A stretch of 64,000 nucleotides of DNA from Clostridia bacterium. Lineage in GTDB: Bacteria; Bacillota; Clostridia; Christensenellales; UBA1242. The first letter of the stretch is position 1. Every line of letters begins with the position of its first letter. The stretch lies in contig JAZONM010000005.1 of assembly GCA_045654505.1 (NCBI GenBank), forward strand, positions 162,183 to 226,182. Direction: 5' to 3'. The translations under genes were made by a program, and so were the position numbers. Shown piece by piece: positions 23,125 to 43,256 of this stretch. The notes under the pieces were generated by a model. The model had not been told where the DNA came from. It worked only from the letters and a program-made list of their open reading frames with translations, and did not search any database.

Positions 23125-23307
23125 ATATGGCGTATTATAGTATGGTGTTTTTTTGTGTGCAATTTTCAAAATTACGCCATTAGAAAACCTCTTTGGTGTG
23201 AAAGGAGATTTTCTAAGCCCTCGTATTATAATGTATTGTGTTAGAGGGTATTTTTGAGGAAAATATGGGTTGATGTTTTTCTCAGTAATAATTTAGGAGG
23301 GTTTAGG

Positions 23308-23679
23308 ATGCCAACAATCAATCAATTAGTAAATCAAGGCAGAAAGAAAATCGCAGTTAAATCTAATGTTCCTATTTTGGAAGAAAACCCACAAAAAAGA
23401 GGTGTTTGCCTAAGCGTAACTACCACTTCTCCTAAAAAACCAAACTCTGCTCTTCGTAAAATCGCGAGAGTTAGACTAAGCAACGGTGAAGAAGGTACTG
23501 TATACATTCCAGGCGAAGGACACAACTTGCAAGAGCACAGCGTAGTGCTTATCCGTGGTGGTAGAGTTAGAGATTTACCAGGTGTACGTTATCACATTAT
23601 CCGTGGTACTCTTGATGCTGCTGGTGTTGCTAAGAGAAAACAATCTCGTAGTAAATACGGTGCTAAAAAAGGTAAATAA
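23308..23679 (+). CDS. rpsL: 30S ribosomal protein S12
   Basis: [23 protein letters not shown] lies 8 nt upstream of ATG 23308. The listed ORF start 23254 is an upstream in-frame extension. Confidence 0.97.
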
Positions 23680-23723
23680 AAAATTTTAAAAACAAATAAT
23701 TAAATATTGAAGGAGATACAATT

Positions 23724-24194
23724 ATGCCAAGAAGAGGTGGCGTACCTAAGAGAGATGTACTTCCTGATCCACGTTATGGTGATAAAGTAGTAACAAAAGT
23801 TATCAATCAAGTAATGTTGGATGGTAAGAAGGCTATCGCTCAAAGAATAGTGTACAATGCATTTGATATTATCAAAGAAAAACTTGGTGTTGAGCCTCAC
23901 GATTACTTTACTCAAGCTCTTAATAATCTAAAACCTATGCTTGAGACTAAAGCTCGCCGTGTAGGTGGAAGCAACTATCAAGTTCCGCTAGAAGTTAGTC
24001 CTGTAAGACAACAAACTCTAGCAATACGTTGGCTAGTAAAATACGCTCGTTTGCGTAGTGAAAAAGATATGGATCAAAAACTAGCTGCAGAAATTATCGA
24101 CGCCTACAATAGTACAGGTGGCGCATATAAAAAGAAAGACGATACGCATAGAATGGCTGAAAGTAATAAGGCATTTGCGCATTATCGTTGGTAG
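23724..24194 (+). CDS. rpsG: 30S ribosomal protein S7
   Basis: [13 protein letters not shown]..; conserved S7 sequence of 156 aa. Confidence 0.97.
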
Positions 24195-24212
24195 AAAAGG
24201 GGAAAAGATATT

Positions 24213-26285: not shown

Positions 26286-26324
26286 CTAATATTTATAAAA
26301 AATAATTTAGGAGGATAATAAATA

Positions 26325-27527
26325 ATGGCTAAAGCAAAGTTTGAAAGAACAAAACCACACGTTAACGTTGGTACTATCGGACACGTTGACCACGGTAAAA
26401 CAACTCTTACTGCTGCTATTACATTGACCCAAGCTGCTGCTGGTAAAGCTCAAGCTATGGACTACAGTGCAATCGATAAAGCACCAGAAGAGAGACAAAG
26501 AGGTATTACTATCAATACTTCACACGTAGAGTACGAGACAGAAACTCGCCACTACGCTCACGTAGACTGCCCAGGACACGCAGACTATGTTAAAAACATG
26601 ATTACTGGTGCTGCACAAATGGATGGCGCTATCCTAGTTGTTGCTGCAACAGACGGTCCAATGCCTCAAACAAAAGAGCATATTCTTCTTGCTCGTCAAG
26701 TAGGCGTTCCATACATTGTTGTATTCATGAACAAAACTGACCAAGTAGATGACCCAGAGCTTATCGAATTGGTAGAAATGGATATCAGAGAACTTCTTAA
26801 TGAGTATGGTTTCCCAGGAGACACAACTCCAATTATCAAAGGAAGTGCTCTTAAAGCTCTAGAAGCAGCTAAATCAGGTAATGTTGATGGTGCTGATTCT
26901 CAAGCTATTAAAGATCTTCTTGCAGCTCTTGACTCTTATATTCCTGAGCCAGAAAGAGCTACTGACAAACCTTTCTTGATGCCTGTAGAAGACGTATTCA
27001 CAATCACTGGTCGTGGTACTGTTGCTACTGGTAGAGTAGAAAGAGGTACTATTAAAGTTGGTGATACAGTAGAAATCGTAGGTATGGGTAGCAAACTTAC
27101 ATCAGTAGTTACTGGTGTTGAGATGTTTAGAAAACTTCTTGACCAAGCAGTTGCTGGTGACAACGTAGGTCTTCTACTTCGTGGTATTGACCGTACTCAA
27201 ATTGAAAGAGGTCAAGTACTTGCAAAACCTGCTTCTATTCACCCACATACTGAATTTACAGCAGAAGTATACGTATTGAAGAAAGAAGAAGGTGGTCGTC
27301 ATACTCCATTCTTTAATGGTTATCGTCCGCAATTCTACTTCCGTACTACAGACGTTACTGGTAGCATCGAGCTTCAAGAAGGCGTTGAGATGGGTATGCC
27401 TGGTGACAACGTAAGAATGACTATCAAATTGATCACTCCAATCGCAATCGAGCAAGGTCTTCGTTTTGCTATTCGTGAAGGTGGTCGTACAGTTGGTTCT
27501 GGCGTTATTTCTTCAATTATCGCATAG
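26325..27527 (+). CDS. tuf: Elongation factor Tu
   Basis: [34 protein letters not shown] and NKTD; 400 aa. Confidence 0.98.
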
Positions 27528-27748: not shown

Positions 27749-29203
27749 ATGGACGACAAATTCACAATGCCTAAAGGGGTAGAGGTTGCGCTTGAAAAAG
27801 TTACTGCAACTGGTGCTCCAAGATTGGGCTCATACAATTCTAGAGGCGATTATGTAATCGCACCTGCTATTATTAAAGAACTTTTGAGTGTAAATAAGTA
27901 CAAAAAGACTACTTTCAAAAACTCTGTCTTTTGTACAAGTTTTTTGCCTGTCTATGGCGAACTTACATTTGAAGTTGTGTATGAGAAAAATTCTATCAAT
28001 AATTCTGCTCTCGCAACCATCTATTTGCTCGAAAATGAATATAAGGTGAATGGTTACCTGCAAAACACCATTAAGACCAAAATTGGCCACTATATTGGCG
28101 ATTTAGACGGTTTTATAGAGGAAAGTTATAAGAGATTCAACATTTCAATCTTGCCAGTAGGTGAGAGTAAAGACTATAGAGTATCTGACGACGAAAAACT
28201 TGATGGTTATATTGTCACAAAACAACAATTTAATAATCTTCTTGAAAAAGTATCGAAGGAAGAGTGTGACAAAATATATGAGGACTATTTTACAAAACGT
28301 CTAGAAATCTTAAATTCGCTTAATTCTGCATTCTCAAAGGAAGTTCTTGCGAAATTTAAAAATGAATATGCGAAGATTGAAAAGTACTTTTTAAAAGAAA
28401 AAGATTATCGCGCTCTAAGTGAGCTTCTTGATAAGTGTTTTGAGGATGTTTCGGGTACAAAATTAGAGTATAAAGAGGAAGAAGAGGAGTTTCAAAAAAA
28501 GATTTTGCCTATTCTTACTCTGTTTATTCAAGAAATGGAAAAAGCTACCGAGAAGGCATCAAATAAGGCTAAAAACCTTCTAAATAAGAAGGAAAGAGCA
28601 AAACTTGAGGATATTGTAAAACAAGAAGAGGAAGCATCTCCTTCAAAGTCTAATATTGGAGTAGATAAGTCTCCGCTTGTAGCACTACTTAAGGGTGATA
28701 TGCCTAAGGTGCTAAATCCAAGAGGCACTTCTTCAGAAAAGGGTAAAATAAGTGATGACCTTTACAATAGATTGAATAAAGCCCTTAAAGGCATTGAAGG
28801 TTTAAATAAAATTGATGACACAACTAAAAATATTCCACCTAGTACAAAAGTAGAAAAGCCAACTCATGAAAATCCAAATGGTAAAAGACTTGTTAAGGAA
28901 TTTGAAGAATATACAAATAAAGAATCCCAAAACAACAATCCTCAAACATTCATTGTCGGTGATGATAAGTCTAATAGCATTTTATTTTCTGAAAATGAAT
29001 TTAACAAAATCACACCAAATAATGAAGTGGAAAAAATCAGTAAAAGACCAGATAATACCAAACTACAAATTGAAAACGAGATAGGTGAATTATTTGGTGG
29101 ATTATCAAATGATGAAGTTGAGGTAAGGGGTGAGCCCAAAACTAGTCCAGGTCCAAGGACTCCTCAATCAAGTCATATAGATACAAATGTTAATGAAAGA
29201 TAA
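27749..29203 (+). CDS. Hypothetical protein (484 aa): globular N-terminal part, charged coiled-coil middle, low-complexity C-terminal part
   Basis: GGAGG lies 10 nt upstream. No signal peptide, TM segment or known motif recognised. The K/E-rich central region is predicted helical by eye. Confidence 0.7.
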   Translation: MDDKFTMPKGVEVALEKVTATGAPRLGSYNSRGDYVIAPAIIKELLSVNKYKKTTFKNSVFCTSFLPVYGELTFEVVYEKNSINNSALATIYLLENEYKVNGYLQNTIKTKIGHYIGDLDGFIEESYKRFNISILPVGESKDYRVSDDEKLDGYIVTKQQFNNLLEKVSKEECDKIYEDYFTKRLEILNSLNSAFSKEVLAKFKNEYAKIEKYFLKEKDYRALSELLDKCFEDVSGTKLEYKEEEEEFQKKILPILTLFIQEMEKATEKASNKAKNLLNKKERAKLEDIVKQEEEASPSKSNIGVDKSPLVALLKGDMPKVLNPRGTSSEKGKISDDLYNRLNKALKGIEGLNKIDDTTKNIPPSTKVEKPTHENPNGKRLVKEFEEYTNKESQNNNPQTFIVGDDKSNSILFSENEFNKITPNNEVEKISKRPDNTKLQIENEIGELFGGLSNDEVEVRGEPKTSPGPRTPQSSHIDTNVNER

Positions 29204-29235
29204 AAAAAGAATACGCGGAAGCGTATTCTTTTTTA
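29202..29235. terminator. Bidirectional terminator shared by the convergent orphans
   Basis: A7, stem aaagaatacgc, loop ggaa, stem gcgtattcttt, then T-run. It lies between the stop at 29203 (+) and the stop at 29233 (-). Confidence 0.85.
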
Positions 29236-30174
29236 CCAAGGCTCTTTGCCTGAATTGGAAAAACGACCTGAAGATGGTGGGTTTTTACCAGAAATTCTGT
29301 CGCAAATACTTACTTTCCCGGTATATCCCAAACTTCTTTGACTACCACCAAAGTACAAAACATCTTCTTTAGAGACTGAATTGTTTTTTATATTATTATA
29401 AAAGTTTAGGCAATCCGCTTTAAGTGCCGGTTTTCCTTTAAATGGATCTGGATTGGTCATTGCGCCAAGAACATTGTTTTTTATATCTTTCAAAACTGTT
29501 TGAAATTGTTTGTTTGAATAAGAATCTGATGGTGAGTTTTTGTCCCATGCTTTAAAATAAAGTACAGAGGCGGTGCGGTTTAGCAGCATTATATCATTGA
29601 TTTTCAAAACTTCTTGATAGAATTTGGATGACATCAGTTGTTCTTTTGTCATATTGGATTTAAGAGTGCTGTCAATCAATGGTTTGATTAGTTTTGAATT
29701 GAATGAAAATCCTTGTTTTGTGCTAGACCAAATAAAACCGCCTTGATACTCATCAAACAACCAAGCAAAATTTTCATCAAAATGTTTGCGCCAATTATTT
29801 TTTCCGGCAACTTTCATAGATGCATAAACAAACACCGAATATACATTTTTTTGACATTGTGTAATGTGAGGATGAAATTTATTTATTTCATCGACTTCAT
29901 CTTTAGTGAACTCGTGACCTCTAACATTTGAAAAATCTTGTTTTATTTTGTTCATATGTGAGTCATATGTTATATAAGAGGGTGAAAACACTTCATCGTA
30001 CATTTCTGGAAGAAAATAGTTTGGAAAACTGGCAATCAATGGGTGATTGGACTCAAGATTGTATATATCTTTTCCCCATTTAGCAGCTAAATTTTCGTTG
30101 GAATTGTCACCTTCTCTATATTTATAATAAAGAAAACGTTGACTATGCCAGAAGTCGTTTTGTGGTTTTGCCAT
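29233..30174 (-). CDS. Hypothetical protein (313 aa)
   Basis: Start MAKPQNDFW at 30174 is preceded by GAGGTGA. The listed ORF extends 14 codons further to 30216. No motif recognised. Confidence 0.7.
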   Translation of the reverse strand: MAKPQNDFWHSQRFLYYKYREGDNSNENLAAKWGKDIYNLESNHPLIASFPNYFLPEMYDEVFSPSYITYDSHMNKIKQDFSNVRGHEFTKDEVDEINKFHPHITQCQKNVYSVFVYASMKVAGKNNWRKHFDENFAWLFDEYQGGFIWSSTKQGFSFNSKLIKPLIDSTLKSNMTKEQLMSSKFYQEVLKINDIMLLNRTASVLYFKAWDKNSPSDSYSNKQFQTVLKDIKNNVLGAMTNPDPFKGKPALKADCLNFYNNIKNNSVSKEDVLYFGGSQRSLGYTGKVSICDRISGKNPPSSGRFSNSGKEPW

Positions 30175-30202
30175 AATAATCACCTCGTAATTTTCTTTAA
30201 AT

Positions 30203-30231
30203 ATTATACTATACAATTGGTTGTTTGTAAA
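30203..30231 (-). promoter_or_regulatory. Promoter of the 313-aa orphan
   Basis: On the minus strand: TTTACA(AA), 17 nt, TATAAT. On the plus strand these read tgtaaa (30226-30231) and attata (30203-30208). Confidence 0.6.
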
Positions 30232-32134: not shown

Positions 32135-32158
32135 CTACTCGCTATAATGGAGGATAAA

Positions 32159-32308
32159 ATGAGAGAGACTATTATTCTTGCTTGCACAGAATGTAAAAGA
32201 AGAAATTACAACACTGAAAAGAATAAAAAGAACGACCCTGAAAGAAAAGAAATTAAGAAGTTCTGTAAGTTCTGCAACAAACACACAGTGCACAAAGAAA
32301 CAAAATAA
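32159..32308 (+). CDS. rpmG: 50S ribosomal protein L33
   Basis: Not in the ORF track because it is only 49 aa. My translation is [49 protein letters not shown], with the CxxC...CxxC zinc knuckle. GGAGG SD upstream. Confidence 0.9.
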
Positions 32309-32327: not shown

Positions 32328-32687
32328 ATGGCAAAGAAAGTTGAAGTAAAAACAACTGAAGTAGAGGTTGTTGAGCCGGATACAACTCAAAACGACAAAG
32401 TAGAAGAAAAAACTGTCGTTAAAGAAAAAAAAGCTAAACAAGAAAAAGTGAAGGCAGATAAAAACAGCAAAAACCAAAAGAAAGGTAAAAATGTTAAAGA
32501 AAAACGTGGTCTTGGCAAAAGACTAAAAGAGAGCATGAGTGAGCTTAAAAAAGTAAGCTGGCCTACTTTTGGACACACTGTAAAACAAACAGGTGTTGTA
32601 ATTACTGTTGTGGCTATATGTACACTTGCATTGTTTGGTTTTGACAGACTATTTGGTTGGTTGTATACACTTCTTACCGGTATTTAA
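32328..32687 (+). CDS. secE: Preprotein translocase subunit SecE with a long Lys/Glu-rich N-terminal extension
   Basis: The C-terminal ..ELKKVSWPT.. motif plus a single TM is the SecE core. It is preceded by about 65 aa of K/E/V-rich low complexity. Confidence 0.85.
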   Translation: MAKKVEVKTTEVEVVEPDTTQNDKVEEKTVVKEKKAKQEKVKADKNSKNQKKGKNVKEKRGLGKRLKESMSELKKVSWPTFGHTVKQTGVVITVVAICTLALFGFDRLFGWLYTLLTGI

Positions 32688-32698: not shown

Positions 32699-33343
32699 AT
32701 GGAAGAATTAGAAACACTTGATATGCAAGCCTCCAAAGTAGAAGAGGCTCAAGAAGTAGCGACTACTGAAACTACCGAAGAAAACCAACCCACAGAGCAA
32801 GAACTACGTATCCGTGCTGCTCGTGAACAAGCTAAATGGTACGTTTTGCACACATATTCGGGTTATGAAAATGTTGCAAAAGAAAACTTAGAGATAGTAA
32901 TCGACAAGTACAGTCTTCAAGAACGTATATTTGATATTATCATTCCTATGGAAGATGTAGTAGAGGACAAGAATGGAAAACGTAAAGTTGTTACTCGCAA
33001 AATCATGCCAGGATATATTATGGTAAAAATGATATACGGCGACGATATTTGGCATGCTATCACTCGTACACGCGGTATTACTGGTTTTGTAGGTCCTAAA
33101 GGACGTCCGCTTCCACTTACTGAAGATGAAATCAGAAAAATGCATCTTGAGAAAGTCGAGGTTGTTGATATTGATATCAAAGTCAATGACAAAGTTGAGG
33201 TTATGGAAGGCGCGCTTAATGGATTTATTGGTACAGTTGTGTCAGTAGATGTAGAAGCTCTAAAATGTAGAGTTGTGGTTGAGATGTTTGGAAGAGAGAC
33301 ACCTGTCGATCTTAATCTTAACCAAGTTAGAAAAGTTGATTAA
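32699..33343 (+). CDS. nusG: Transcription termination/antitermination factor NusG
   Basis: AAGGAG lies before ATG 32699; the listed ORF starts at 32657. NGN domain KWYVLHTYSGYE and a C-terminal KOW domain. There is a ~45-aa acidic N-terminal extension. Confidence 0.93.
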   Translation: MEELETLDMQASKVEEAQEVATTETTEENQPTEQELRIRAAREQAKWYVLHTYSGYENVAKENLEIVIDKYSLQERIFDIIIPMEDVVEDKNGKRKVVTRKIMPGYIMVKMIYGDDIWHAITRTRGITGFVGPKGRPLPLTEDEIRKMHLEKVEVVDIDIKVNDKVEVMEGALNGFIGTVVSVDVEALKCRVVVEMFGRETPVDLNLNQVRKVD

Positions 33344-33418
33344 AATTTTGATAATAACACAATTTACATTGTTTTATTATATGTCAAAGAGATTTGACAT
33401 GACCGAGTTTTCGGTCGA

Positions 33419-33464
33419 AGTGGGAGAAACGTAAATTTGTTATGCGTTTTGATAAGACCACAAG
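33419..33464 (+). promoter_or_regulatory. Putative L1-binding mRNA structure (L11-operon leader type), copy 1
   Basis: aGUGGGAGAaacg-loop-cguuuugauaagaCCACAAG. The outer GUGG/CCAC helix encloses GGGAG and an inner aaacg/cguuu hairpin. It lies 26 nt upstream of the rplK ATG. Confidence 0.5.
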
Positions 33465-33489
33465 CCAAGTATGGCAGGAGGAAAACATA

Positions 33490-33924
33490 ATGGCAGACCC
33501 TAAGAAAAAAGTTAATGCGATTGTTAAATTGCAACTAAACGCAGGTAAGGCAACAGCAGGTCCACCAGTTGGTTCGTCTCTTGGTCCTCACGGAATAAAC
33601 ATTCCTGCATTCACCAAAGAGTTCAACGAAAGAACTGCATCTCAAGAAGGACTTGTAATACCAGTTGTTATTACAATCTATGCTGACCGTTCTTTCTCTT
33701 TCGTGCTTAAGACTCCACCAGCAGCTGTTCTTATAAAGAAAGCTTGCAAAATCGATAGTGGAAGTGCAAACTCTATCAAAAATAAAGTTGCAACAATTAC
33801 AAAAGCACAAGTTAAAGAAATAGCAGAATTGAAAATGCCTGACCTAAACGCATCAAGTGTTGAGACAGCTATGAGCATGATTGAAGGCACTTGCAGAAGT
33901 ATGGGCGTAACAGTTGTTGAGTAA
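33490..33924 (+). CDS. rplK: 50S ribosomal protein L11
   Basis: [28 protein letters not shown].. with AGGAGG SD. The listed ORF start 33442 is an upstream in-frame extension. Confidence 0.96.
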
Positions 33925-33940
33925 TCAATAACTAAAGAAT

Positions 33941-33985
33941 AGTGGGAGAGTAAAAAATCTATAATTTACTTGTTAAAACCACAAG
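33941..33985 (+). promoter_or_regulatory. Putative L1-binding mRNA structure, copy 2 (abuts the rplA SD)
   Basis: aGUGGGAGagtaaa-loop-tttacttgttaaaaCCACAAGGAGG. It has the same AGTGGGAGA...ACCACAAG frame as copy 1 and an inner agtaaa/tttact hairpin. The 3' arm runs directly into the SD. Confidence 0.5.
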
Positions 33986-33994
33986 GAGGAATTT

Positions 33995-34678
33995 ATGAAA
34001 AAAGGTAAAAGATATATTGAAAGTGCAAAACTTGTAGATAGAAGTACTGCATATTCTGTAGATGATGCTATGGAATTGGTACAAAAGACTGCAAGCGCTA
34101 AATTCGATGAAACTGTAGAATTGCACGTAAAACTAGGCGTAGACGGAAGAAACGCTGACCAACAAGTTAGAGGCGTAGTTGTGCTTCCTAATGGTACTGG
34201 TAAAAGCGTTAAGGTATTGGTAATCACTAAAGGTGACAATGCAGATGCTGCTGAAAAAGCAGGTGCTGATTATGTTGGTGCTGAAGAGATGGTTGCTAAG
34301 ATCCAACAAGGATGGATGGATTTTGATGTATGTATCACTACACCAGATATGATGCCAGTTATTAGTCGTGTAGCAAAAATTCTAGGACCAAAGGGCTTGA
34401 TGCCAAATCCTAAGAGCGGCACAGTAACAACTGATGTTGTTAAGGCAATCAATGATACAAAAGCTGGTAAAGTAGAGTATCGTCTTGACAAAACAAACAT
34501 TATCCACGTTCGTATCGGTAAAGTTTCATTCGGCAGTGAAAAACTTATTCAAAACTTCAATACTTTGATGGATGCACTTGTAAAAGCAAAACCAGCAGCT
34601 GCTAAAGGAACATATATCAAAAATGTTACACTAAGTAGCACAATGGGACCTGGAATCAAAGTTGAGTACAGAATCTAG
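33995..34678 (+). CDS. rplA: 50S ribosomal protein L1
   Basis: Conserved L1 sequence (..[10 protein letters not shown]..) of 227 aa. Confidence 0.96.
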
Positions 34679-34693
34679 TAAAAACAAACAAAA

Positions 34694-34718
34694 AGAGGCG
34701 AAAAACGTCTCTTTTTTG
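34694..34718 (+). terminator. Terminator after rplA
   Basis: Stem agaggcg, loop aaaaa, stem cgtctct (one G-U pair), then T6. Confidence 0.7.
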
Positions 34719-34746
34719 TTTTTATGACAAATTATATACAGCAAAT

Positions 34747-34786
34747 AAAAAAATCGCATATCTGCTCAATTTCGAAGATATGCGAT
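34747..34786 (-). terminator. Terminator of the reverse-strand orphan P1
   Basis: 11-bp stem atcgcatatct / agatatgcgat. On the minus strand it is followed by T7, immediately after the TAA at 34789-34791. Confidence 0.8.
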
Positions 34787-34788
34787 TT

Positions 34789-35541
34789 TTAGTTGTTGTA
34801 ATCTCTAAGAATATTGCGTGCAAGATCAGAGGCGATTATTCTATTTGAAGCATAGAAGTCGCGTCTATCAAATCTTAGTGTAACTTCTTTAGCGATTTTG
34901 TATGGTACTTCACGATAAAAATTCTTTTCGCGTTGCATTTGTGGGCTTAAAGCAAACTCTTTTATAAGGCTTGCAAGATATGCATTGAATATAGTGTCTA
35001 GTGCATTCACGACTTCTTTGTATTCAATACATTCGATAAATGCATTGGCAATCATTTTTTCATTACCATTATGTAGATTTGGGCGATTGCTGATAAAATC
35101 ACACATAATCTCAAACATACTTTTCTTATTGTGTCTGCTGTCATTATAGTTAAAGTCTTTTACAATGCTTGCCACTTTAAAATGAGCATCTATATCGTCA
35201 AATACTGTTTCGACTTTATTTATCATCCCCATACAAATACGTGTACGAGCAAGACCTCTAAGATTTAGTCTGCCGTCTTCAAATATGGTGTAAGAATCCT
35301 CATTATTGAAACGAGTAGCCATCTGAATACCTAGATTAGCAGTTTTGAAAGGGGAGCACACATAGTCTATAAAATACTCTTTTACATTGTCTTTATTAAA
35401 GCTTGACACATTTGCTAATTCAATACACTCATTAAAGACATTGGAAACAACATTTGTTTTGCGCACAAAAAAATCTATTTGCTCATTAAGCAAATACCAC
35501 ACGCTGTCTATTGCTAAGCTTTCTAATTTTTTTGTTTCCAT
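34789..35541 (-). CDS. Hypothetical protein P1 (250 aa)
   Basis: Long ORF with its own promoter and terminator. Weak SD (AAGGAAAA). No motif recognised and no TM segment. Confidence 0.65.
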   Translation of the reverse strand: METKKLESLAIDSVWYLLNEQIDFFVRKTNVVSNVFNECIELANVSSFNKDNVKEYFIDYVCSPFKTANLGIQMATRFNNEDSYTIFEDGRLNLRGLARTRICMGMINKVETVFDDIDAHFKVASIVKDFNYNDSRHNKKSMFEIMCDFISNRPNLHNGNEKMIANAFIECIEYKEVVNALDTIFNAYLASLIKEFALSPQMQREKNFYREVPYKIAKEVTLRFDRRDFYASNRIIASDLARNILRDYNN

Positions 35542-35561
35542 TTTTCTTATTTTCCTTTTAT

Positions 35562-35591
35562 ATTATAAAATTTTATGTTTGTGCTTGTCAA
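35562..35591 (-). promoter_or_regulatory. Promoter of P1
   Basis: On the minus strand: TTGACA (plus strand 35586-35591), 17-18 nt, then TTATAAT. Confidence 0.55.
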
Positions 35592-35612
35592 ATTTTTTAA
35601 TGACATATAGAC

Positions 35613-35650
35613 ATAAAAAAAAGAAGGTTTGCACCTTCTTTTTTGTTTTT
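35613..35650. terminator. Terminator of P2 (symmetrical A-run/T-run hairpin)
   Basis: A8, stem aagaaggt, loop ttgc, stem accttctt, then a T-run. It separates the P2 stop (35691) from the P1 promoter. Confidence 0.8.
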
Positions 35651-35690
35651 GATACTATAATAAAAGTCAAACAACATCGGCTTTTTGTAA

Positions 35691-36452
35691 TTACATAACT
35701 TTTTCATTTATTATGCTGCTTCTGATTTTAGTCGCAGTCGTATTTTTGTACTCTTCTGGAGTATAAGCAAGTCCGTGTTTTTTTGTGGAAATTTCAGATA
35801 TTTTCGAATTGAATTCGTGTAGCCAGAATGAAATATTTACTGAGGGATATTGTCTAGCCAATTGTCTACATTGTCTGCGATTCAATTGCTGTTGTTGGGC
35901 ATATGATTCCAGTTGTTGTTTCACAACTTCCTCGCTGCAGTATTCTAGGTCGAAAATATTTATTGTACTGCTTCTTTGTTTGTCTATTCTGGTATATATA
36001 TCTTTTGTGTATTCATTTATGGTAGTGTTTTTCAATTTCTCAAGTTTTACCAAAACAGCATTTGGAGGGAGATTGTCCCAATTGTGTTCGCTTGCTATTG
36101 CGCTTGCAATACGCTTTCTTTCGTTGAGATTGTGTGCAAATTCCAATGAAGTAATGCTATTGATTATACTTTTAATGTCTTTTGTGTAGTATTGACTAAA
36201 TAAAAAAGAACAATCATATTTTAAACCAAACATTCTTTCTACTTTTGTACTTTTATCAATACTTGCTGCTATATCTATCAATTGAGAATGTATTGATGTC
36301 TTGAGAAATTTATCATCGTGTGGTGTGTTTGTAGTGGAGGAAAGAGCCTTTTTGACAATGGCATAAATGTCTTGGGTGTACTTGTGAATATATTCTGATA
36401 TTAAATTGTCGCAAAGTAAAATTGTGTTTTCTACTAGATTATTGTCAGCCAT
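35691..36452 (-). CDS. Hypothetical protein P2 (253 aa)
   Basis: Perfect AAAGGAGGAAAAAATG start context on the minus strand and its own terminator. Contains a Q-rich segment (QQQQLNRRQCRQLARQ). No motif recognised. Confidence 0.7.
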   Translation of the reverse strand: MADNNLVENTILLCDNLISEYIHKYTQDIYAIVKKALSSTTNTPHDDKFLKTSIHSQLIDIAASIDKSTKVERMFGLKYDCSFLFSQYYTKDIKSIINSITSLEFAHNLNERKRIASAIASEHNWDNLPPNAVLVKLEKLKNTTINEYTKDIYTRIDKQRSSTINIFDLEYCSEEVVKQQLESYAQQQQLNRRQCRQLARQYPSVNISFWLHEFNSKISEISTKKHGLAYTPEEYKNTTATKIRSSIINEKVM

Positions 36453-36478
36453 TTTTTCCTCCTTTATTTTTTTGGTAT

Positions 36479-36487
36479 ATTATATCA
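36479..36487 (-). promoter_or_regulatory. Extended -10 element (TGaTATAAT) upstream of P2
   Basis: The minus strand reads atGATATAATata about 30 nt upstream of the SD. No good -35 was found. Confidence 0.35.
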
Positions 36488-36599
36488 TATTGTAAAGTGA
36501 AAATCTAGATGCAATTTGAAAAAATATAACATAAAATTTGTTATATAATTATATAAAATAAAAGAAAAACAAATTTATAAAAAATATATGTAAGAAGTA

Positions 36600-36628
36600 T
36601 TGACAATAGAAGTTAAATAGATTATAAT
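36600..36628 (+). promoter_or_regulatory. Promoter of rplJ-rplL
   Basis: TTGACA at 36600-36605, 17 nt, TATAAT at 36623-36628. Confidence 0.65.
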
Positions 36629-36778
36629 ACACACGTAAATTGAATATTTCGTTTCGCCAAAGACAGCAAGTACAAAGGTAAATCTTGCCGAGGTAAGTAG
36701 TAAGTGATAATTATATCTCTACGCTTATTTGGCGTGGAGATTTTCTTTTTATAATCACATTTAAAAAGGAGAAATATA
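36629..36778 (+). promoter_or_regulatory. Probable ribosomal protein L10 leader (autoregulatory 5' UTR) with a terminator-type attenuator
   Basis: ~150-nt UTR ending in the hairpin atctctacgc / gcgtggagat (36715-36741) plus ttttcttttt, just before the rplJ SD. This is the layout of the Firmicute L10 leader. The covariance model was not run. Confidence 0.55.
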
Positions 36779-37267
36779 GTGAGCGCTAATCAAGAGTTAA
36801 AAAAGAAAGTTGTTGCCGAACTTAAAAGCGAATTTGAAGGCGCAAAGTCAATCATTTTTGTAGACTATCGTGGTATCAATGTATCTGAAGACACAAAACT
36901 TAGAAAGACTTTCCGTGAAGCAAATGTAACTTATAGAGTTTGCAAAAACAACCTACTAAAACTTGCTCTTCAACAACTTGGCGTTACAGGAATTGAGCCT
37001 ACATGGCTTGAAGGTACTACTGCAGTAGCATATTCTACTGATGAAGTTGCACCTGCTAGAGTATTCTGTAAAGCTGCGAAAGAGCTTAACAAAATGAACG
37101 TTAAATTCGGTATTGTTGATGGTAAGTTAATGAACCAAAGCGAAGTTGAAGCATTGGCAAAAATTCCTTCAAAAGAAGTACTTATTGCTATGTTGCTTGG
37201 TCAACTTCAAGCCCCAATTTCTGCTTTTGCAAGGGCTTTAAATCAAATAGCAGAAAAACAAAATTAA
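36779..37267 (+). CDS. rplJ: 50S ribosomal protein L10
   Basis: GTG start 7 nt after AGGAG. ..IIFVDYRGINVSEDTKLRKTFREANV.. is typical L10. Confidence 0.95.
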   Translation: MSANQELKKKVVAELKSEFEGAKSIIFVDYRGINVSEDTKLRKTFREANVTYRVCKNNLLKLALQQLGVTGIEPTWLEGTTAVAYSTDEVAPARVFCKAAKELNKMNVKFGIVDGKLMNQSEVEALAKIPSKEVLIAMLLGQLQAPISAFARALNQIAEKQN

Positions 37268-37292
37268 TTTATATTTATAAGGAGAAATTAAA

Positions 37293-37667
37293 ATGGCAGA
37301 TCTTAATAAATTTGTTGAAGAAATCAAAGGTCTTACTGTACTAGAAGTAAGCGAATTAGTAAAAATGTTGGAAGAAGAGTTTGGCGTAAGCGCAGCTGCT
37401 CCTGTTGCTGTTGCTGGTGCTGCTCAAGCTGATGCTCCTGCTGCTGCAGAAGAGAAAAGCGAATTTACAGTAGTATTGAAGGAAGTAGGCGCTAATAAGA
37501 TTGCAGTTATTAAAGTTGTTAAAGAAATTACTGGTCTTGGTCTTGGCGAAGCAAAAGCTATCGTTGATGGCGCACCTGCTAATGTTAAAGAAAACGTTCC
37601 TACAGACGAAGCAAAAGCAATTGAAGCAAAACTTAAAGAAGCTGGCGCAACTGTAGAACTTAAGTAA
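37293..37667 (+). CDS. rplL: 50S ribosomal protein L7/L12
   Basis: Ala-rich hinge and C-terminal ..[22 protein letters not shown].. Confidence 0.97.
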
Positions 37668-37688
37668 TCCTAATTTAAATGTGAATAA

Positions 37689-37716
37689 AAAAGACCTATT
37701 TTTAGGTCTTTTTTTG
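37689..37716. terminator. Bidirectional terminator between rplL and the DUF1540 gene
   Basis: A-run, stem aaaagaccta / taggtctttt, then a T-run. Confidence 0.8.
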
Positions 37717-37756
37717 TTTTGTGCATAGTACTACTCAAATTGAATAATTTTCAATA

Positions 37757-38083
37757 TCACTCTTTTATTCGTGTTATGCACTCTGCGGTATTGGAGCCGT
37801 GTTGGAGAGTGATGCCATTGCTATAACACTTACGGTCATTATTGAAAAGACAATTGACGCAGTCGCAGTGGATGTCGACTTTTTTGTTGTGTCGATAGGG
37901 ATGGACAGTGGGTTCTTTTTCAAACATATCGCGGCTTACATCTTGTTGTTGGCGAGGAGGGAGTGTGTCATCATATCTCTCATATGATGCACACATTCCG
38001 TCATTAGTGACTGCAATCCCTTTGCATACACAACAGTATGCGTCGTTGTTTTTACAGTTTAGTTGTCTACATTTCAAATCCAT
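37757..38083 (-). CDS. DUF1540-like Cys-rich protein (two Cys-rich half-repeats)
   Basis: C-x4-C-x7-CC-x-C..C in the N-terminal half and C-x-C-x2-C-x8-C..C in the C-terminal half resemble the DUF1540 pattern. 108 aa. Confidence 0.55.
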   Translation of the reverse strand: MDLKCRQLNCKNNDAYCCVCKGIAVTNDGMCASYERYDDTLPPRQQQDVSRDMFEKEPTVHPYRHNKKVDIHCDCVNCLFNNDRKCYSNGITLQHGSNTAECITRIKE

Positions 38084-38616: not shown

Positions 38617-39132
38617 ATGTTTAAGTTTAAAAATGTGAGGGGGGGGGGTAACCTCCTAGAAAAAAATACTTACAATAGAATGATTGATGAAATAAAATTT
38701 GATTCTAGTGTAGTAATAGGTGATAAGCAATATAAGGTGCTATCAAAAACCTTCTATTCTAATTTAAATAATCGTCAATTAAAGTATGTAAAATTTGTAT
38801 TAAATAACGATAAAATATTGGTTGTTAATCCTGAAAGAGAATCAATATTTCTTGGGGAAGTGGTAGATGACTTCTATAAAGACGAATACTTCCCAAAAAG
38901 TTTTGAATATGAAGGCAAAACATTTGTAGAGTTTGAAAAAGATATCCAAATCGTAAATAAAATTGAGTTTGGCGAACCAGCTGAATGTGAAGGTGAGTGT
39001 GTTTGGGTAGATTATGTATGTCAAGAAGACAAAACTATATGTATTGACATGGCGTATATCTATAGAGATAAAAAACGTGCTGATATTTTGGCAAAATGGA
39101 TTGATATAAAAACAATAAAAGTAAAGAATTAA
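38617..39132 (+). CDS. Hypothetical protein, tentatively DUF4178-like, with a G10 tract in codons 8-11
   Basis: 171-aa ORF starting 11 nt after rplI. Repeated F.Y.GK.F...W.DY-type beta-rich pattern and an acidic Cys-rich stretch, EPAECEGECVWVDYVCQEDKTIC. No obvious SD. The family assignment is from memory only. Confidence 0.5.
   Translation: MFKFKNVRGGGNLLEKNTYNRMIDEIKFDSSVVIGDKQYKVLSKTFYSNLNNRQLKYVKFVLNNDKILVVNPERESIFLGEVVDDFYKDEYFPKSFEYEGKTFVEFEKDIQIVNKIEFGEPAECEGECVWVDYVCQEDKTICIDMAYIYRDKKRADILAKWIDIKTIKVKN
38638..38647 (+). repeat. Homopolymeric G10 tract inside the coding sequence
   Basis: gtgaGGGGGGGGGGtaacc. It encodes R-G-G-G. It is the longest G/C run I saw in the window. Confidence 0.95.
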
Positions 39133-39159
39133 GATAGTGTAAGAAGAGGGGTTGTGGAT

Positions 39160-39543
39160 ATGACAAAATTAACATTAAAACAAGTAGAATATATCAAATT
39201 GGCAGAAAAATTGGTATTTACTACTGCAAGTAAAGATGCAAAACCTCGTAGTATCTATGTGATGCCTAGCAGAATTGAAGAGGACAGGATTATCTTATCA
39301 AACATTCAAATGGATAAGTCTCTGACAAATATATTGGAAAACAATAATTGCTTTTTAAATGTTTATCTTCCCGATGAGGACGATTTGCAAATAAAAATCG
39401 AGGGCAAAGCAGAAGTGGTAGATAATGGCTCTTTGTATGAAGAAATAAAGGAATATGAGGAAAGTGAAAATTTGCCACCTGAGCTTAAGGTAAATTCGAT
39501 TATTATAGTAAAAGTAGTCAGTGTCGAAGAGACAAATGGTTGA
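39160..39543 (+). CDS. Pyridoxamine 5'-phosphate oxidase-fold (flavin-binding split-barrel) family protein
   Basis: ..KLVFTTASKDAKPRSIYVMP..DRIILSN.....SLTNILENNNCFLNVY.. resembles small PNPOx-like proteins. ATG 39160 lies 8 nt after GAGGGG; GTG 39154 is also possible. Confidence 0.6.
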   Translation: MTKLTLKQVEYIKLAEKLVFTTASKDAKPRSIYVMPSRIEEDRIILSNIQMDKSLTNILENNNCFLNVYLPDEDDLQIKIEGKAEVVDNGSLYEEIKEYEESENLPPELKVNSIIIVKVVSVEETNG

Positions 39544-39552
39544 TAATTTATT

Positions 39553-40653
39553 ATGGAGGGGTATATGACAGACAATTTGAATACGATAGCTTTTCACATA
39601 ACAGATAATTGCAATGCTCATTGCCCGATGTGTTATGAAAATGCTCAGCAAAATTTGGACCTTAATGGCGAATTGGACACATTGAAAAAGATTGCACATA
39701 ATGCGATTAGATATGGAAAAGTGGAAAATTTTTTAATGGTAGGTGGCGACCCATGTGCATTTCCACACCTTATTGAATTGATGCGATATATCAAGGATGA
39801 GGGTGAGAGGTATGGTGTAGATACTTTTATTGAAGTTTTGTCCAATACGCATGATTACAGAGAAAACGGTAAAATTGTGCCAATGGAAGAGGTTGTAAAG
39901 TTGGTGGACAAAATGAATATTACTGTTCATGGTTCTACGCCTTTACTTCATGATATATTTAATGGTGTGCCAGGATCGTATAATCATATGATAGAGAATG
40001 TGAGAAAGTATATTGAATGTAAAGGGGACGATCAGTCTGTCGGACTTACTTTAAATATAATGCCACACACTATATATTCTTTAGAGAACATTATTCTTAA
40101 TACAAACAGGGATTTGGGTGGAAATATTGTTGATTTGTGCATACAAAGAATTGCACCAGTAGGAAGAGCTGAAGGAAATCTTGAGTTTTTGATTGAAAAA
40201 CCCGATGTAAATGTTTTTATGCCGGTATTGGAAAAAGCGTATCAATCGGGAATGGGTATCGATATCTGTGATTGTTTTCCGTATTGCTCAGTAAAAGATG
40301 AATATCGTCATTTGCTTCCTAAAGGCGGTTGTCAATGGGGAAGAAATATTTTATCTGTGCAAAGAAATGGTGATATGACGCGTTGTGCGCTGTCTTCTAG
40401 AGTTATTGGAAATATGGTAAAACTTGACAGCGAAGAAAAGTATTTTGATTGGTGGGAAAACTGTCCAGAATTGGAGTCTTTTAGAAGAGGTGCTCATTTG
40501 AATGAAGCCTGCAAACAATGCAAACAAGTAGATGAATGCGGCGGAGGGTGTTTGATGGCTCGAGATACAGGTGACCCATACAGATTTGGTGCTGAAAATG
40601 TCACTACAGGAAGAGATTATTTAGCTACTACAGATTATAAAGACGGAAAATAA
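39553..40653 (+). CDS. Radical SAM enzyme with a C-terminal SPASM/twitch-like Cys cluster
   Basis: CNAHCPMC (CxxxCxxC) at nt 39610-39633. C-terminal cysteines are CDCFPYC, GGCQWG, RCAL and ACKQCKQVDECGGGC. The start is more likely ATG 39565, which follows GGAGGGG. Confidence 0.85.
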   Translation: MEGYMTDNLNTIAFHITDNCNAHCPMCYENAQQNLDLNGELDTLKKIAHNAIRYGKVENFLMVGGDPCAFPHLIELMRYIKDEGERYGVDTFIEVLSNTHDYRENGKIVPMEEVVKLVDKMNITVHGSTPLLHDIFNGVPGSYNHMIENVRKYIECKGDDQSVGLTLNIMPHTIYSLENIILNTNRDLGGNIVDLCIQRIAPVGRAEGNLEFLIEKPDVNVFMPVLEKAYQSGMGIDICDCFPYCSVKDEYRHLLPKGGCQWGRNILSVQRNGDMTRCALSSRVIGNMVKLDSEEKYFDWWENCPELESFRRGAHLNEACKQCKQVDECGGGCLMARDTGDPYRFGAENVTTGRDYLATTDYKDGK

Positions 40654-42335: not shown

Positions 42336-43256
42336 CTAGTCAAGCAATTGGATTTCTTCAATGTCTTTTATTTTGCTATTTTCAATTTCGAAGGTGTAAG
42401 ATTTGTACCCTTCAGTTGTTAGAATAGTGTAATTGTTTTCTCTGGTATATGGATTTGGGAATATTTCTTTTACTTCACCAAAGTAAGATTTTAGGTGGTC
42501 GTTTGATACGAAAGCATCTTGAAGATAACTCTTTGCTAAGTTGAAATCATTAAGTTTTATGGCTTCTATAAATGCATATGGTATTGCTTTGATAATATTT
42601 GTCGTTCTGGGAGTTTCGTCAATATATATTGAATAATTGTCAACAAAACCCGTCTTAATGTCATATTCATACACTATACCATGTTTTGCGATGTTTTGTG
42701 TATTTTTCATGAGTTTTATTTTGTCCTTGTCTTTTTCCACTATTTCAAACTCATCATCAATTATTGGTTTATTGTTTTCTAAGTCAAATATTAGATAGTA
42801 CAAATTGTTGTTTTTTAGTTTTCCATATAGTATCAAATGATTTTCTATTGTTGTGTTGCATGACGTAAGTCGCTGGATTTTCTTTGTATAGCTATATTTC
42901 TCGTTTGTTATATTTATGTATGTAAGACTATTTGAAAAAACCTTGATATAATGTTGGCCATATCTTTTATCAATAAGTATTGTGTCTTCCATTTTTTCCA
43001 TTTTTAATGTTGGGATAAAATAGATGTCAGTATGATTGTTGTGAAACGGAATTTTTAAAATATTGTCGTTATTTTTTATATCTATCAAAGAAAATGAGTA
43101 GGGGAGAAACTCGTCGTTGGTTGGCATGCATGATACATAGCAATTTTTCTTGACTGTGATGTCAAGAGTGTTGCTTGGAGAAACTATATATGTTTTTATT
43201 CCGTTGATTGAAATTCTTGCTTTTTCGTTGCATTTTATATGTATATATTTTTCCAT
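42336..43256 (-). CDS. Hypothetical protein (306 aa, N/K/I-rich, beta-rich by eye)
   Basis: AAGGTGA SD upstream of the ATG at 43256. No motif recognised. Confidence 0.6.
   Translation of the reverse strand: MEKYIHIKCNEKARISINGIKTYIVSPSNTLDITVKKNCYVSCMPTNDEFLPYSFSLIDIKNNDNILKIPFHNNHTDIYFIPTLKMEKMEDTILIDKRYGQHYIKVFSNSLTYINITNEKYSYTKKIQRLTSCNTTIENHLILYGKLKNNNLYYLIFDLENNKPIIDDEFEIVEKDKDKIKLMKNTQNIAKHGIVYEYDIKTGFVDNYSIYIDETPRTTNIIKAIPYAFIEAIKLNDFNLAKSYLQDAFVSNDHLKSYFGEVKEIFPNPYTRENNYTILTTEGYKSYTFEIENSKIKDIEEIQLLD

What the first reader, a model, noticed from the sequence alone, without database searches (positions are those of the whole stretch)
34719..36599. Two reverse-strand orphan genes split the rplK-rplA / rplJ-rplL cluster
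rplKAJL is contiguous in almost all bacteria. Here 1.9 kb carrying two minus-strand ORFs (250 and 253 aa) sits between the rplA terminator (34694-34718) and the rplJ promoter and L10 leader (36600-36778).

Each ORF has its own terminator (34747-34786 and 35613-35650). Each also has its own promoter-like element, and P2 has a perfect AAAGGAGG SD.

The two proteins are similar in size but not obviously paralogous, and neither matches any family I can recognise. Because they run antisense to the flanking operons, any read-through from rplA or from P2 would create transcriptional interference with ribosomal protein genes.
Basis: partly seen in the sequence, partly recalled or inferred. Interest (0 to 1): 0.68.

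Follow-up and report, generated by a model that had tools for sequence, protein, structure and literature searches.

The report
Clade-specific orphan genes splitting rplKA/rplJL
Two real protein-coding genes with no known relatives sit between the ribosomal-protein operons rplKA and rplJL in a small group of uncultured gut Clostridia; one is an old, stable resident with a conserved strong promoter, the other varies strongly between strains, and neither has a known function.

Summary
rplA (33995-34678) and rplJ (36779-37267) are separated by two minus-strand genes, OrfA (34789-35541, 250 aa) and OrfB (35691-36452, 253 aa). Each has its own promoter and intrinsic terminator. The L10 leader is intact (Rfam, 63.9 bits). 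Three independent assemblies show the same layout.

Both genes are under purifying selection, and both lack any Pfam, NCBIfam, PADLOC, PHROG, PDB, phage or plasmid match. They are not a matched pair.

**OrfA:**
- It belongs to a very small family: 9 representatives among 1.84 billion.
- The family is always found in this gap, down to 21% identity, and in the outgroups it sits there alone.
- It evolves at the rate of ordinary neighbouring genes.
- It keeps an invariant TTGACA/TATAAT promoter preceded by a terminator.

**OrfB:**
- It occupies a variable slot between OrfA and the rplJ promoter.
- It has five allele classes, 36-75% identical to the window copy, in strains whose neighbouring proteins are 91-100% identical.
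- Sister species carry two other orphan genes (X and Y) in this slot, plus HelD or a Rho paralogue elsewhere in the gap.
- Its promoter carries an invariant palindromic element, CATCTAGATTTT.

Bidirectional terminators make transcriptional interference unlikely. Function remains unknown. Orphan genes are common in this genome, so interest is moderate.

The parts
33995..34678 (+). rplA (L1), last gene of the rplKA unit
   Evidence: 81-97% identical to L1 of the related loci
34690..34716 (+). rplA intrinsic terminator (11-bp stem plus T-run)
   Evidence: -15.9 kcal/mol, z = -5.0
34749..34790 (-). OrfA intrinsic terminator: perfect 15-bp stem, 12-nt loop, U-run. A-run and T-run flank it, so it can act on both strands
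   Evidence: I13; -18.6 kcal/mol, z = -4.5
34789..35541 (-). OrfA, 250 aa. Cytoplasmic all-alpha protein of a clade-restricted family
35562..35591 (-). OrfA promoter TTGACA-N18-TATAAT. Both hexamers are invariant in 9 loci while the spacer varies
35617..35644 (.). Bidirectional intrinsic terminator. It ends OrfB on the minus strand and would stop plus-strand antisense transcripts
35691..36452 (-). OrfB, 253 aa. Hypervariable orphan gene in the variable slot
36458..36465 (-). OrfB Shine-Dalgarno sequence AAAGGAGG, 5 nt before the ATG
   Evidence: read; conserved as GGAGG in all alleles
36479..36489 (-). OrfB extended -10 element TATGATATAAT, invariant as TATGnTATAAT in 5 allele classes
36500..36511 (-). 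Invariant CATCTAGATTTT element over the -35 position of the OrfB promoter. It contains the 8-bp palindrome ATCTAGAT and is a candidate operator
36600..36628 (+). rplJ promoter TTGACA-N17-TATAAT
36639..36755 (+). L10 leader (RF00557), including the hairpin at 36715-36741
36779..37667 (+). rplJ (36779-37267) and rplL (37293-37667)
   Evidence: Pfam annotations of the orthologues

Best explanation
The rplA-rplJ gap of this uncultured, low-GC gut Clostridia lineage holds two separate, independently transcribed, clade-restricted protein genes. The public records label related genomes 'uncultured Clostridia' or 'Christensenella sp.'.

Shown:
- OrfA is the ancestral resident of the gap. It is a soluble, all-helical protein of about 29 kDa and is inherited vertically.
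- OrfA is under strong purifying selection and evolves at the pace of ordinary neighbouring genes.
- In every close-family locus OrfA is a monocistronic unit, with a terminator upstream, an invariant consensus sigma-A-type promoter, a short 5' UTR and its own terminator.
- OrfB is a later arrival in a variable slot between the OrfA promoter and the rplJ promoter.
- OrfB stays intact and collinear at 251-257 aa, but its protein sequence changes about 10-15 times faster than its neighbours. It exists as at least five allele classes in near-identical genomic backgrounds.
- Sister species hold two other orphan genes, X and Y, in this slot. Outgroups hold nothing there.

Inferred, with low confidence:
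- OrfA is a constitutively and probably highly expressed clade-specific factor. It is co-regulated with, or acts on, the transcription-translation machinery whose genes surround it.
- OrfB is a fast-evolving cytoplasmic accessory or regulatory protein. Its transcription is controlled through the invariant palindromic ATCTAGAT element in its promoter.
- The flanking ribosomal-protein operons are insulated from both genes by bidirectional terminators, so the arrangement is transcriptionally neutral for them.
For: Real genes:
- OrfA has 11 clusters at 61-100% identity and OrfB has 4.
- omega is 0.03-0.05 for OrfA and about 0.075 for the closest OrfB pair.

Narrow family:
- An OrfA profile search against 1.84 billion representatives returned 9 hits.
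- Two of 185,579 GTDB species carry the family.
- There were no hits in JGI metagenomes.

Fixed locus:
- OrfA lies in the gap in L001, L004, L009, L012, L015 and L018, and next to rplA in L010.
- The 36%-identical homologue sits alone in the gap on a 382-kb contig (L013).
- The 21-25%-identical homologues sit directly upstream of rplJ, transcribed divergently from it, with nothing between (L014 and L020).
- Contigs found through the identical L12 protein, a look-up that does not depend on OrfA, show the same layout.

Ordinary rate for OrfA:
- OrfA is 61-68% identical to the L004 and L001 copies. The neighbouring Zn-peptidases are 61-66%, the ABC permease 43-44% and the 306-aa neighbour 50%.

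Promoter and terminator conservation for OrfA.

OrfB hypervariability:
- OrfB is 38% identical to the L026 copy by global alignment, while Cys108, L9, ZnPep1 and L10 are 93%, 92%, 91% and 99%.
- dN is 0.58 against a neighbour dS of 1.0-1.8.
- Nucleotide identity falls from 92-98% to 50-60% exactly at the rplJ -35 element.

Other points:
- The conserved OrfB promoter element is present once in each of 11 OrfB loci and in none of the other 19 loci.
- The transcription context recurs. HelD (416 bits) and a Rho paralogue (92 bits) were inserted in the same gap in sister species.
- GC and GC3 match the host.
Against: - No biochemical function can be assigned. OrfA has a fairly confident model (pLDDT 80, pTM 0.79), but it matches nothing in the PDB or BFVD (best E = 0.3-0.4).
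- The OrfB model is unreliable (pLDDT 52).
- OrfA is mildly acidic (pI 6.0) and has no recognisable nucleic-acid-binding domain. That does not favour ribosome or RNA binding.
- Synteny of the whole 16-kb neighbourhood is conserved. The fixed position of OrfA may therefore reflect low rearrangement rather than functional coupling.
- Insertion of OrfB or X-Y between OrfA and rplJ shows that adjacency of the two promoters is not required.
- Expression has not been observed.
- Orphan genes are frequent in this genome. Eight of 10 other ORFs tested had no Pfam hit, so location next to ribosomal genes may mean little.
Confidence: 0.55

Rival explanations
1. The slot genes (OrfB here, X-Y in sister species), possibly together with OrfA, form a conflict system. 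This could be an unrecognised anti-phage defence, abortive-infection or similar arms-race module, and that would explain why OrfB diversifies so quickly.
For: - OrfB has five allele classes, 36-75% identical to the window copy, in backgrounds that are 91-100% identical.
- The content of the slot turns over: none, OrfB, or X-Y.
- Metagenome contigs often break at OrfB.
- There is a possible shared 57-residue module between OrfB and X (hhalign E = 8.5e-5, probability 60%).
Against: - No consistent PADLOC hit for OrfA, OrfB, X or Y.
- No enzymatic or NTPase domain.
- No relatives on viral contigs, phages or plasmids.
- OrfA is a stable, vertically inherited gene with an ordinary rate and is transcribed separately.
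- Pairwise omega stays below 1.
- The slot holds only one or two small genes, with no neighbouring defence genes.
Confidence: 0.2
2. OrfA is a transcriptional regulator paired with its divergently transcribed target, rplJL, or is autoregulated from the shared intergenic region. This would be the classic conserved divergent regulator-target pair.
For: - The divergent OrfA-rplJ adjacency, with a 260-300 bp intergenic region, is the ancestral state. It is retained down to 21% OrfA identity.
- From established knowledge (Korbel et al. 2004, Nat Biotechnol; not checked here), conserved divergent pairs are enriched for regulator-target relations.
Against: - No helix-turn-helix or other DNA-binding family was detected by Pfam, NCBIfam, PDB profile search or Foldseek.
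- rplJL already carries its own L10 leader autoregulation.
- In the window and in sister species 0.9-2.3 kb of other genes plus a terminator separate OrfA from the rplJ promoter. The rplJ promoter and leader remain 91-98% conserved regardless.
Confidence: 0.1
3. The 1.9 kb is a remnant of a mobile element (prophage, IS or integrative island) that landed between the two operons.
For: - Opposite strand to all neighbours.
- AT-rich intergenic DNA.
- No known families.
Against: - No integrase or transposase.
- No flanking direct or inverted repeats beyond low-complexity AT runs.
- No tRNA gene and no other RNA family in the gap.
- GC and GC3 are the same as the host.
- No phage, plasmid or viral-contig homologues.
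- OrfA has been present at the same site since before a divergence of 21-36% protein identity.
Confidence: 0.04
4. The ORFs are spurious, or the arrangement is a mis-assembly of the metagenome-assembled genome.
For: None beyond the lack of annotation.
Against: - Independent contigs from several studies reproduce the arrangement.
- Full-length homologues exist, with pN far below pS.
- Promoter, Shine-Dalgarno and terminator signals are conserved.
Confidence: 0.01

Closest known systems
Non-ribosomal genes embedded in the Firmicute secE-nusG-rplKAJL-rpoBC-rpsLG cluster, for example Bacillus subtilis ybxB between rplL and rpoB and ybxF/rpL7Ae between rpoC and rpsL (from my own knowledge, not tested here)
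   Same: Extra genes that are stably inherited inside the otherwise highly conserved transcription-translation gene cluster of a lineage.
   Different: - The Bacillus genes are on the same strand and belong to recognisable families (a methyltransferase and an L7Ae-like protein).
- OrfA and OrfB are antisense to the cluster and have their own promoters and terminators.
- They have no detectable sequence or structural relatives.
- They split rplA from rplJ, a junction that is normally contiguous.
Taxonomically restricted (orphan) genes and strain-variable hotspots between conserved core genes
   Same: - Homologues exist only in a narrow clade.
- The slot has a fixed position flanked by core genes.
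- Its content differs between close relatives: OrfB alleles, X-Y, or empty.
   Different: - The slot lies inside a ribosomal-protein cluster.
- It holds only one or two small genes.
- There are no mobility genes and no known defence genes.
- OrfB alleles are collinear homologues rather than unrelated cargo.
RNA-polymerase accessory factors HelD and Rho
   Same: Sister species inserted a HelD gene (NF041464, 416 bits) or a Rho paralogue (TIGR00767, 92 bits) into the same rplA-rplJ gap. The gap therefore repeatedly houses transcription-linked genes.
   Different: OrfA and OrfB share no sequence or fold with HelD, Rho, Gre/DksA-type factors or sigma factors. The link is by location only.

Membership tests
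Known anti-phage defence systems (PADLOC-DB) | Significant match of the proteins to a defence-protein model | tested here: not met
   - OrfA has one 12.8-bit hit, and each of six families is matched by only 1 of the 15 OrfA-family members.
- OrfB has no hit.
- Among X and Y proteins there is a single weak hit.
Known anti-phage defence systems (PADLOC-DB) | Patchy, horizontally transferred distribution, often in islands with other defence or mobility genes | tested here: not met
   OrfA is vertically inherited at one locus. There are no defence or mobility neighbours. OrfB turnover alone fits this feature.
Type II toxin-antitoxin pair | Two adjacent co-transcribed genes that strictly co-occur | tested here: not met
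   OrfA occurs without OrfB (L013, L014, L020) and with X-Y instead. A terminator and a separate promoter lie between OrfB and OrfA. Both proteins are about 250 aa.
Mobile element or prophage remnant | Integrase or transposase, terminal repeats, deviant composition, and relatives on phages or plasmids | tested here: not met
rplKAJL operon member or ribosomal protein | Co-directional and co-transcribed with the ribosomal-protein genes, with a match to a ribosomal-protein family | tested here: not met
   The genes are on the opposite strand with their own promoters and terminators. There is no Pfam or NCBIfam match.
Sigma-70-type or helix-turn-helix transcription regulators | Recognisable DNA-binding domain by sequence profile or fold | tested here: not met
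   - Pfam and NCBIfam gave none.
- The PDB profile search gave a best E of 0.3.
- Foldseek against the PDB gave a best E of 0.31.
- The OrfB model was too poor to test.
Taxonomically restricted (orphan) gene | No homologue outside a narrow lineage despite exhaustive search | tested here: met
   - OrfA: 9 representatives among 1.84 billion.
- OrfB: 4 clusters among 5.8 billion.
- 2 of 185,579 GTDB species carry OrfA.
- None in JGI metagenomes or IMG/VR.
Taxonomically restricted (orphan) gene | Evidence that the ORF is a functional gene: purifying selection and conserved expression signals | tested here: met
   Transcription itself could not be tested with the runs available.

The most novel reading that the evidence does not exclude
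OrfA is a clade-specific, highly expressed accessory factor of the transcription-translation machinery, binding for example RNA polymerase or the L10/L12 stalk. The adjacent slot (OrfB here, X-Y elsewhere) would encode rapidly co-evolving modulators of it, diversifying under pressure from phage proteins that target the same machinery. The invariant ATCTAGAT operator would serve as the control point.
Probability: 0.1. Interest if true: 0.7.

Novelty: new variant of a known kind. Interest (0 to 1): 0.36.

Why it matters
The rplKA-rplJL junction is among the most conserved gene adjacencies in bacteria. This work shows a lineage in which it has been stably interrupted for a long time. The interrupting gene has a fairly confident predicted fold that matches nothing known, and a perfectly conserved strong promoter. 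Beside it is a slot that holds one of the fastest-evolving genes in the neighbourhood.

If OrfA proved to work with RNA polymerase or the ribosome, it would be a new lineage-specific component of core machinery in a poorly known group of gut bacteria. If OrfB proved to be a conflict gene, it would define a new family.

As it stands, the result is a well-documented pair of new orphan families in a genome where orphans are common.

Tried and rejected
**Family searches**
- Pfam, NCBIfam, PADLOC and PHROGs scans of OrfA and OrfB gave only sub-threshold, inconsistent hits. Pfam and PADLOC scans of all 15 OrfA-family members did no better.
- PADLOC scans of the X and Y proteins and two further OrfB alleles gave one weak hit. 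One X and one Y protein scanned against NCBIfam gave nothing significant.

**Structure**
- The OrfA AF2 model was searched with Foldseek against the PDB and BFVD. Nothing scored better than E = 0.3.
- An OrfA profile searched against PDB sequences found nothing.
- The OrfB AF2 model had pLDDT 52, so no fold search was run on it.

**Paralogy**
- OrfA against OrfB, X and Y, and OrfB against Y, gave nothing.
- There are no paralogues among 43 window ORFs.
- The only positive is a local 57-residue similarity between OrfB and X (E = 4e-4, improving to 8.5e-5 with four OrfB sequences). It lies at different positions in the two proteins, so I treat it as a lead and not as proof.

**Mobile origin**
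- Scans of viral contigs, phage records and plasmids, a repeat search and composition analysis were all negative.

**Recombination**
- I considered recombination or allele replacement as the reason for the sharp identity drop at 36600.
- I rejected it as a necessary explanation. Unconstrained intergenic DNA and a fast gene next to a highly constrained promoter and leader produce the same picture. Synonymous sites are saturated in ordinary neighbours too (dS 1.0-1.8).

**RNA evidence**
- Only two runs of unknown type hold the sequence, as fragmentary low-depth contigs with no excess over the ribosomal-protein genes. They were uninformative.
- Odd 'joints' that skip about 2.1-2.2 kb have only 21-32 nt on one side and start inside rplA. 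I read them as cross-matches of other organisms' conserved genes, not as deletion forms.

**Literature and metagenomes**
- A literature search for insertions between rplA and rplJ found nothing relevant.
- The JGI metagenome scan was empty.
Full report
**1. The observation**

The window carries, on the + strand (starts of nusG and rplK adjusted to the orthologues):
- rpmG (32147-32308)
- secE (32328-32687)
- nusG (about 32699-33343)
- rplK (about 33490-33924)
- rplA (33995-34678)

Two minus-strand ORFs follow. I call them OrfA (34789-35541, 250 aa) and OrfB (35691-36452, 253 aa). rplJ (36779-37267) and rplL (37293-37667) then follow on the + strand.

Rfam finds a complete L10 leader at 36639-36755 (63.9 bits, gathering score 44).

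The consensus scan finds:
- the rplA terminator at 34690-34716
- a bidirectional terminator at 35617-35644
- a 12/12 consensus promoter for OrfA (35591..35562, minus strand)
- a 12/12 consensus promoter for rplJ (36600-36628)

The OrfA terminator is a perfect 15-bp hairpin at 34749-34790 (I13). All four hairpins tested fold far better than shuffled sequence (z = -4.2 to -5.0).

The arrangement is not an assembly artefact. An 8006-nt contig from a bovine gut metagenome covers 33400-37800 with 44 mismatches. A 2933-nt contig from another study and a 316-kb ENA contig show the same order.

**2. Both ORFs are genes, and both are orphans**

OrfA has 11 clusters of full-length homologues at 61-100% identity. 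OrfB has 4.

Selection estimates:

| Comparison | Gene | dN | dS | omega |
|---|---|---|---|---|
| Window vs L015 | OrfA | 0.089 | 1.8 | about 0.05 |
| Window vs L018 | OrfA (partial) | 0.026 | 0.97 | 0.027 |
| Window vs L018 | OrfB | 0.14 | 1.9 | 0.075 |

- Neither protein matches Pfam, NCBIfam, PADLOC or PHROGs above noise. Scanning all 15 OrfA-family members against Pfam and PADLOC gave no recurrent family.
- The two proteins are unrelated to each other.
- Both are soluble, with no hydrophobic segment. OrfA has pI 6.0 and OrfB pI 8.5. Their GC and GC3 match the host.
- The OrfA AlphaFold model is fairly confident (pLDDT 80.4, pTM 0.79). It is all-alpha and begins with a long helical hairpin.
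- That model has no Foldseek match better than E = 0.3 in the PDB or among viral proteins, and no profile match to PDB sequences.
- The OrfB model is unreliable (pLDDT 52), so it was not searched.

**3. OrfA is an old, fixed resident of the gap**

A profile of the OrfA family searched against 1.84 billion representative proteins returned only 9 hits. Two of 185,579 GTDB species carry the family. Their records are titled 'uncultured Clostridia bacterium' and 'uncultured Christensenella sp.'. JGI metagenomes and IMG/VR have none. Runs that hold the window sequence are bovine, sheep and other gut metagenomes.

Every homologue whose context could be read lies in the same gap:
- **L001, L004, L009, L012:** rplJ, then X, then Y, then OrfA, then rplA.
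- **L006, L015, L018:** rplJ, then an OrfB allele, then OrfA; L015 also reaches rplA, while the L006 and L018 contigs end inside OrfA.
- **L013:** the 36%-identical homologue, alone in the gap on a 382-kb contig.
- **L014 and L020:** the 21-25%-identical homologues. OrfA lies directly upstream of rplJ and its leader, transcribed divergently from them.
- **L010:** the cassette is inverted next to rplA.

By parsimony, the ancestral state is OrfA alone, back to back with the rplJ promoter.

A look-up seeded with the identical L12 protein does not depend on OrfA. It returned only contigs with the same layout, or contigs that break just upstream of rplJ.

OrfA is not unusually fast. The table gives identity to the window copy:

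| Protein | L004 | L001 | L013 |
|---|---|---|---|
| OrfA | 61% | 68% | 36% |
| Zn-peptidases | 61-63% | 66% | 51-53% |
| ABC permease | 43% | 44% | 44% |
| 306-aa neighbour | 50% | not present in the locus | 39% |

Against the more distant L013 genome OrfA is thus slightly faster than these neighbours.

The whole 16-kb neighbourhood is syntenic in these genomes. The fixed position alone is therefore weak evidence of functional coupling.

**4. OrfA is its own transcription unit with a conserved strong promoter**

I aligned the 160 nt upstream of OrfA from nine loci. Each shows, in order:
- an intrinsic terminator ending the upstream gene (OrfB or Y)
- an invariant TTTGACA
- a variable 17-18-nt spacer
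- an invariant TATAATATA
- a UTR of about 20 nt with a GGA/GTGG ribosome-binding site
- the ATG

The outgroups keep near-consensus promoters at the same distance (L014 TTGACT-N18-TATAAT; L013 TTGCAA-N17-TATAAT).

Invariant hexamers around a drifting spacer are the signature of a promoter under selection. I infer constitutive sigma-A-type expression. This is an inference, since no RNA data could be obtained.

**5. OrfB occupies a variable slot and is hypervariable**

Between the OrfA promoter and the rplJ promoter:
- outgroups have nothing
- the window's group has OrfB
- the sister group has two other orphan genes, X (253-287 aa) and Y (367-412 aa; split into 100 and 274 aa in L009)

Sources.

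Among strains whose L12 is identical and whose L10 is 96-100% identical, OrfB falls into five classes. By MAFFT alignment they are 98-100%, 75%, 53%, 45% and 36% identical to the window copy. Global pairwise alignment gives 38% for the most distant class.

For the most distant class (L026), the ordinary neighbours Cys108, L9 and Zn-peptidase are 93%, 92% and 91% identical. OrfB dN is 0.58, against neighbour dN of 0.04-0.06 and neighbour dS of 1.0-1.8. OrfB is therefore about 10-15 times faster at the protein level, with an effective omega of roughly 0.3-0.6 at that distance.

The alleles stay collinear, intact and 251-257 aa long, with conserved blocks such as T[IL]LLCDNLIS[EQ]Y near the N terminus.

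Nucleotide identity between the window and L015 or L006 is:
- 92-98% across the rplJ promoter and leader
- 50-60% from 36600 leftwards across OrfB
- 70-90% across OrfA

Source.

I do not need recombination to explain this step. A very constrained promoter and leader next to unconstrained DNA and a fast gene is sufficient.

OrfB and X share one local 57-residue similarity (OrfB 48-104 against X 185-241; hhalign E = 8.5e-5, probability 60%). It may mean the slot genes have a common origin. It is not conclusive.

**6. A conserved control element in the OrfB promoter**

The DNA upstream of OrfB is otherwise unalignable between allele classes. All five classes nevertheless keep CATCTAGATTTT, then 10-11 variable bases, then TATGnTATAAT, then a GGAGG ribosome-binding site.

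- The 12-mer covers the -35 position and contains the perfect 8-bp palindrome ATCTAGAT (window 36503-36510).
- It occurs once in the window.
- It occurs exactly once in each of the 11 OrfB-bearing loci and in none of the other 19 loci fetched.

I read this as an extended -10 promoter with an operator-like site. What binds it is unknown.

**7. Transcriptional interference**

Only rplA and OrfA converge. Their 3' ends are separated by two strong hairpins, 33 nt apart, each flanked by A-runs and T-runs. OrfB and OrfA are separated by a bidirectional terminator. OrfB and rplJ diverge, with about 90 bp between the OrfB promoter element (36500-36511) and the rplJ -35 hexamer (36600).

The anatomy argues for insulation, not interference. 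A direct measurement was not possible.

**8. What the genes might do**

Known defence, toxin-antitoxin, mobile-element and regulator families all fail their membership tests (see the membership table).

Two context clues exist:
1. The gap lies inside the transcription-translation gene cluster. Sister species independently placed a HelD gene (NF041464, 416 bits against a cut-off of 419) and a Rho paralogue (TIGR00767, 92 bits) in the same gap.
2. OrfA has the expression signals and evolutionary behaviour of a core gene. OrfB behaves like a conflict or accessory gene.

My best reading is as follows. OrfA is a constitutively expressed clade-specific factor linked to the surrounding machinery. OrfB is a fast-evolving accessory or regulatory protein under operator control. 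The evolutionary description is well supported. The functional part is inference, and I give it about one chance in four or five.

**9. Calibration**

This genome is rich in orphans. Eight of ten other ORFs tested in the window have no Pfam hit. These include three that separate rpoC from rpsL and two between tuf and the ABC transporter genes.

The gene order of the whole cluster is also rearranged, with rpoBC lying upstream of rpsLG-fusA-tuf and of secE-nusG-rplKA.

Against that background, two more orphans in a conserved cluster are less surprising than they first look.

Three things remain unusual:
- the age and fixity of OrfA at the rplA-rplJ junction
- its fairly confidently predicted fold with no known match
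- the extreme variability of OrfB beside a highly conserved promoter and leader

**10. Verdict**

The finding is real and the description is correct. The 'orphan pair' should be re-read as one ancient core orphan plus one hypervariable slot gene. The interference idea is unsupported, and function is unknown. Novelty: two new protein families in a known type of situation, namely lineage-specific genes embedded in the ribosomal/RNAP cluster. Interest is moderate, at 0.36.

Noticed in passing
window 12267-27527: The usual Firmicute order is rearranged. rpoB (12267-15980) and rpoC (15993-19598) lie upstream of rpsL-rpsG-fusA-tuf (23254-27527), which in turn lies upstream of rpmG-secE-nusG-rplKA. 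Three ORFs with no Pfam match (19874-20590, 20771-21739, 22292-22957) separate rpoC from rpsL.
   Followed up: partly
window 38617-40653: A three-gene cassette lies between rplI and the Zn-peptidase genes: a 171-aa orphan, a 129-aa PNPOx-like protein and a 366-aa radical-SAM protein. It is present in the window and in L023-L025 but absent in L021, L022 and L026, strains with the identical L12. It is a strain-variable insertion.
   Followed up: partly
window 37757-38083 (-): A Cys-rich 108-aa protein (weak DUF1540 hit, E = 0.0015) is encoded antisense between rplL and rplI. It is conserved at 58-100% identity at the same place in all relatives examined. It is another lineage-specific gene inside the ribosomal-protein cluster.
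   Followed up: partly
L001 8969-10999; L010 4614-5741; L001 2041-4221: Sister species carry extra genes in or near the same gap. There is a HelD-type RNA-polymerase recycling helicase (416 bits), a 375-aa Rho paralogue, and a 726-aa LRR protein between rplL and the Cys-rich gene.
   Followed up: partly
L009 6704-7901: The Y gene of the X-Y-OrfA cassette is split into 100-aa and 274-aa ORFs in one relative. It is probably a frameshifted or decaying copy, while OrfA next to it is intact.
   Followed up: no
L023, L025, L029, L030 (contig ends 180-250 bp upstream of rplJ): Several metagenome contigs carrying the identical L12 gene end just upstream of the rplJ promoter, at the edge of OrfB. This fits assembly breaks caused by co-existing OrfB alleles within samples.
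   Followed up: no
window 168-11852 (+): A giant ORF of 3894 aa occupies the first 12 kb of the window. It was not analysed.
   Followed up: no
window 27749-29203 (+), 29233-30216 (-), 42336-43256 (-), 50271-52241 (+): Further sizeable ORFs (484, 327, 306 and 656 aa) have no Pfam match. Orphan genes are common in this genome, which lowers the surprise value of any single one.
   Followed up: partly
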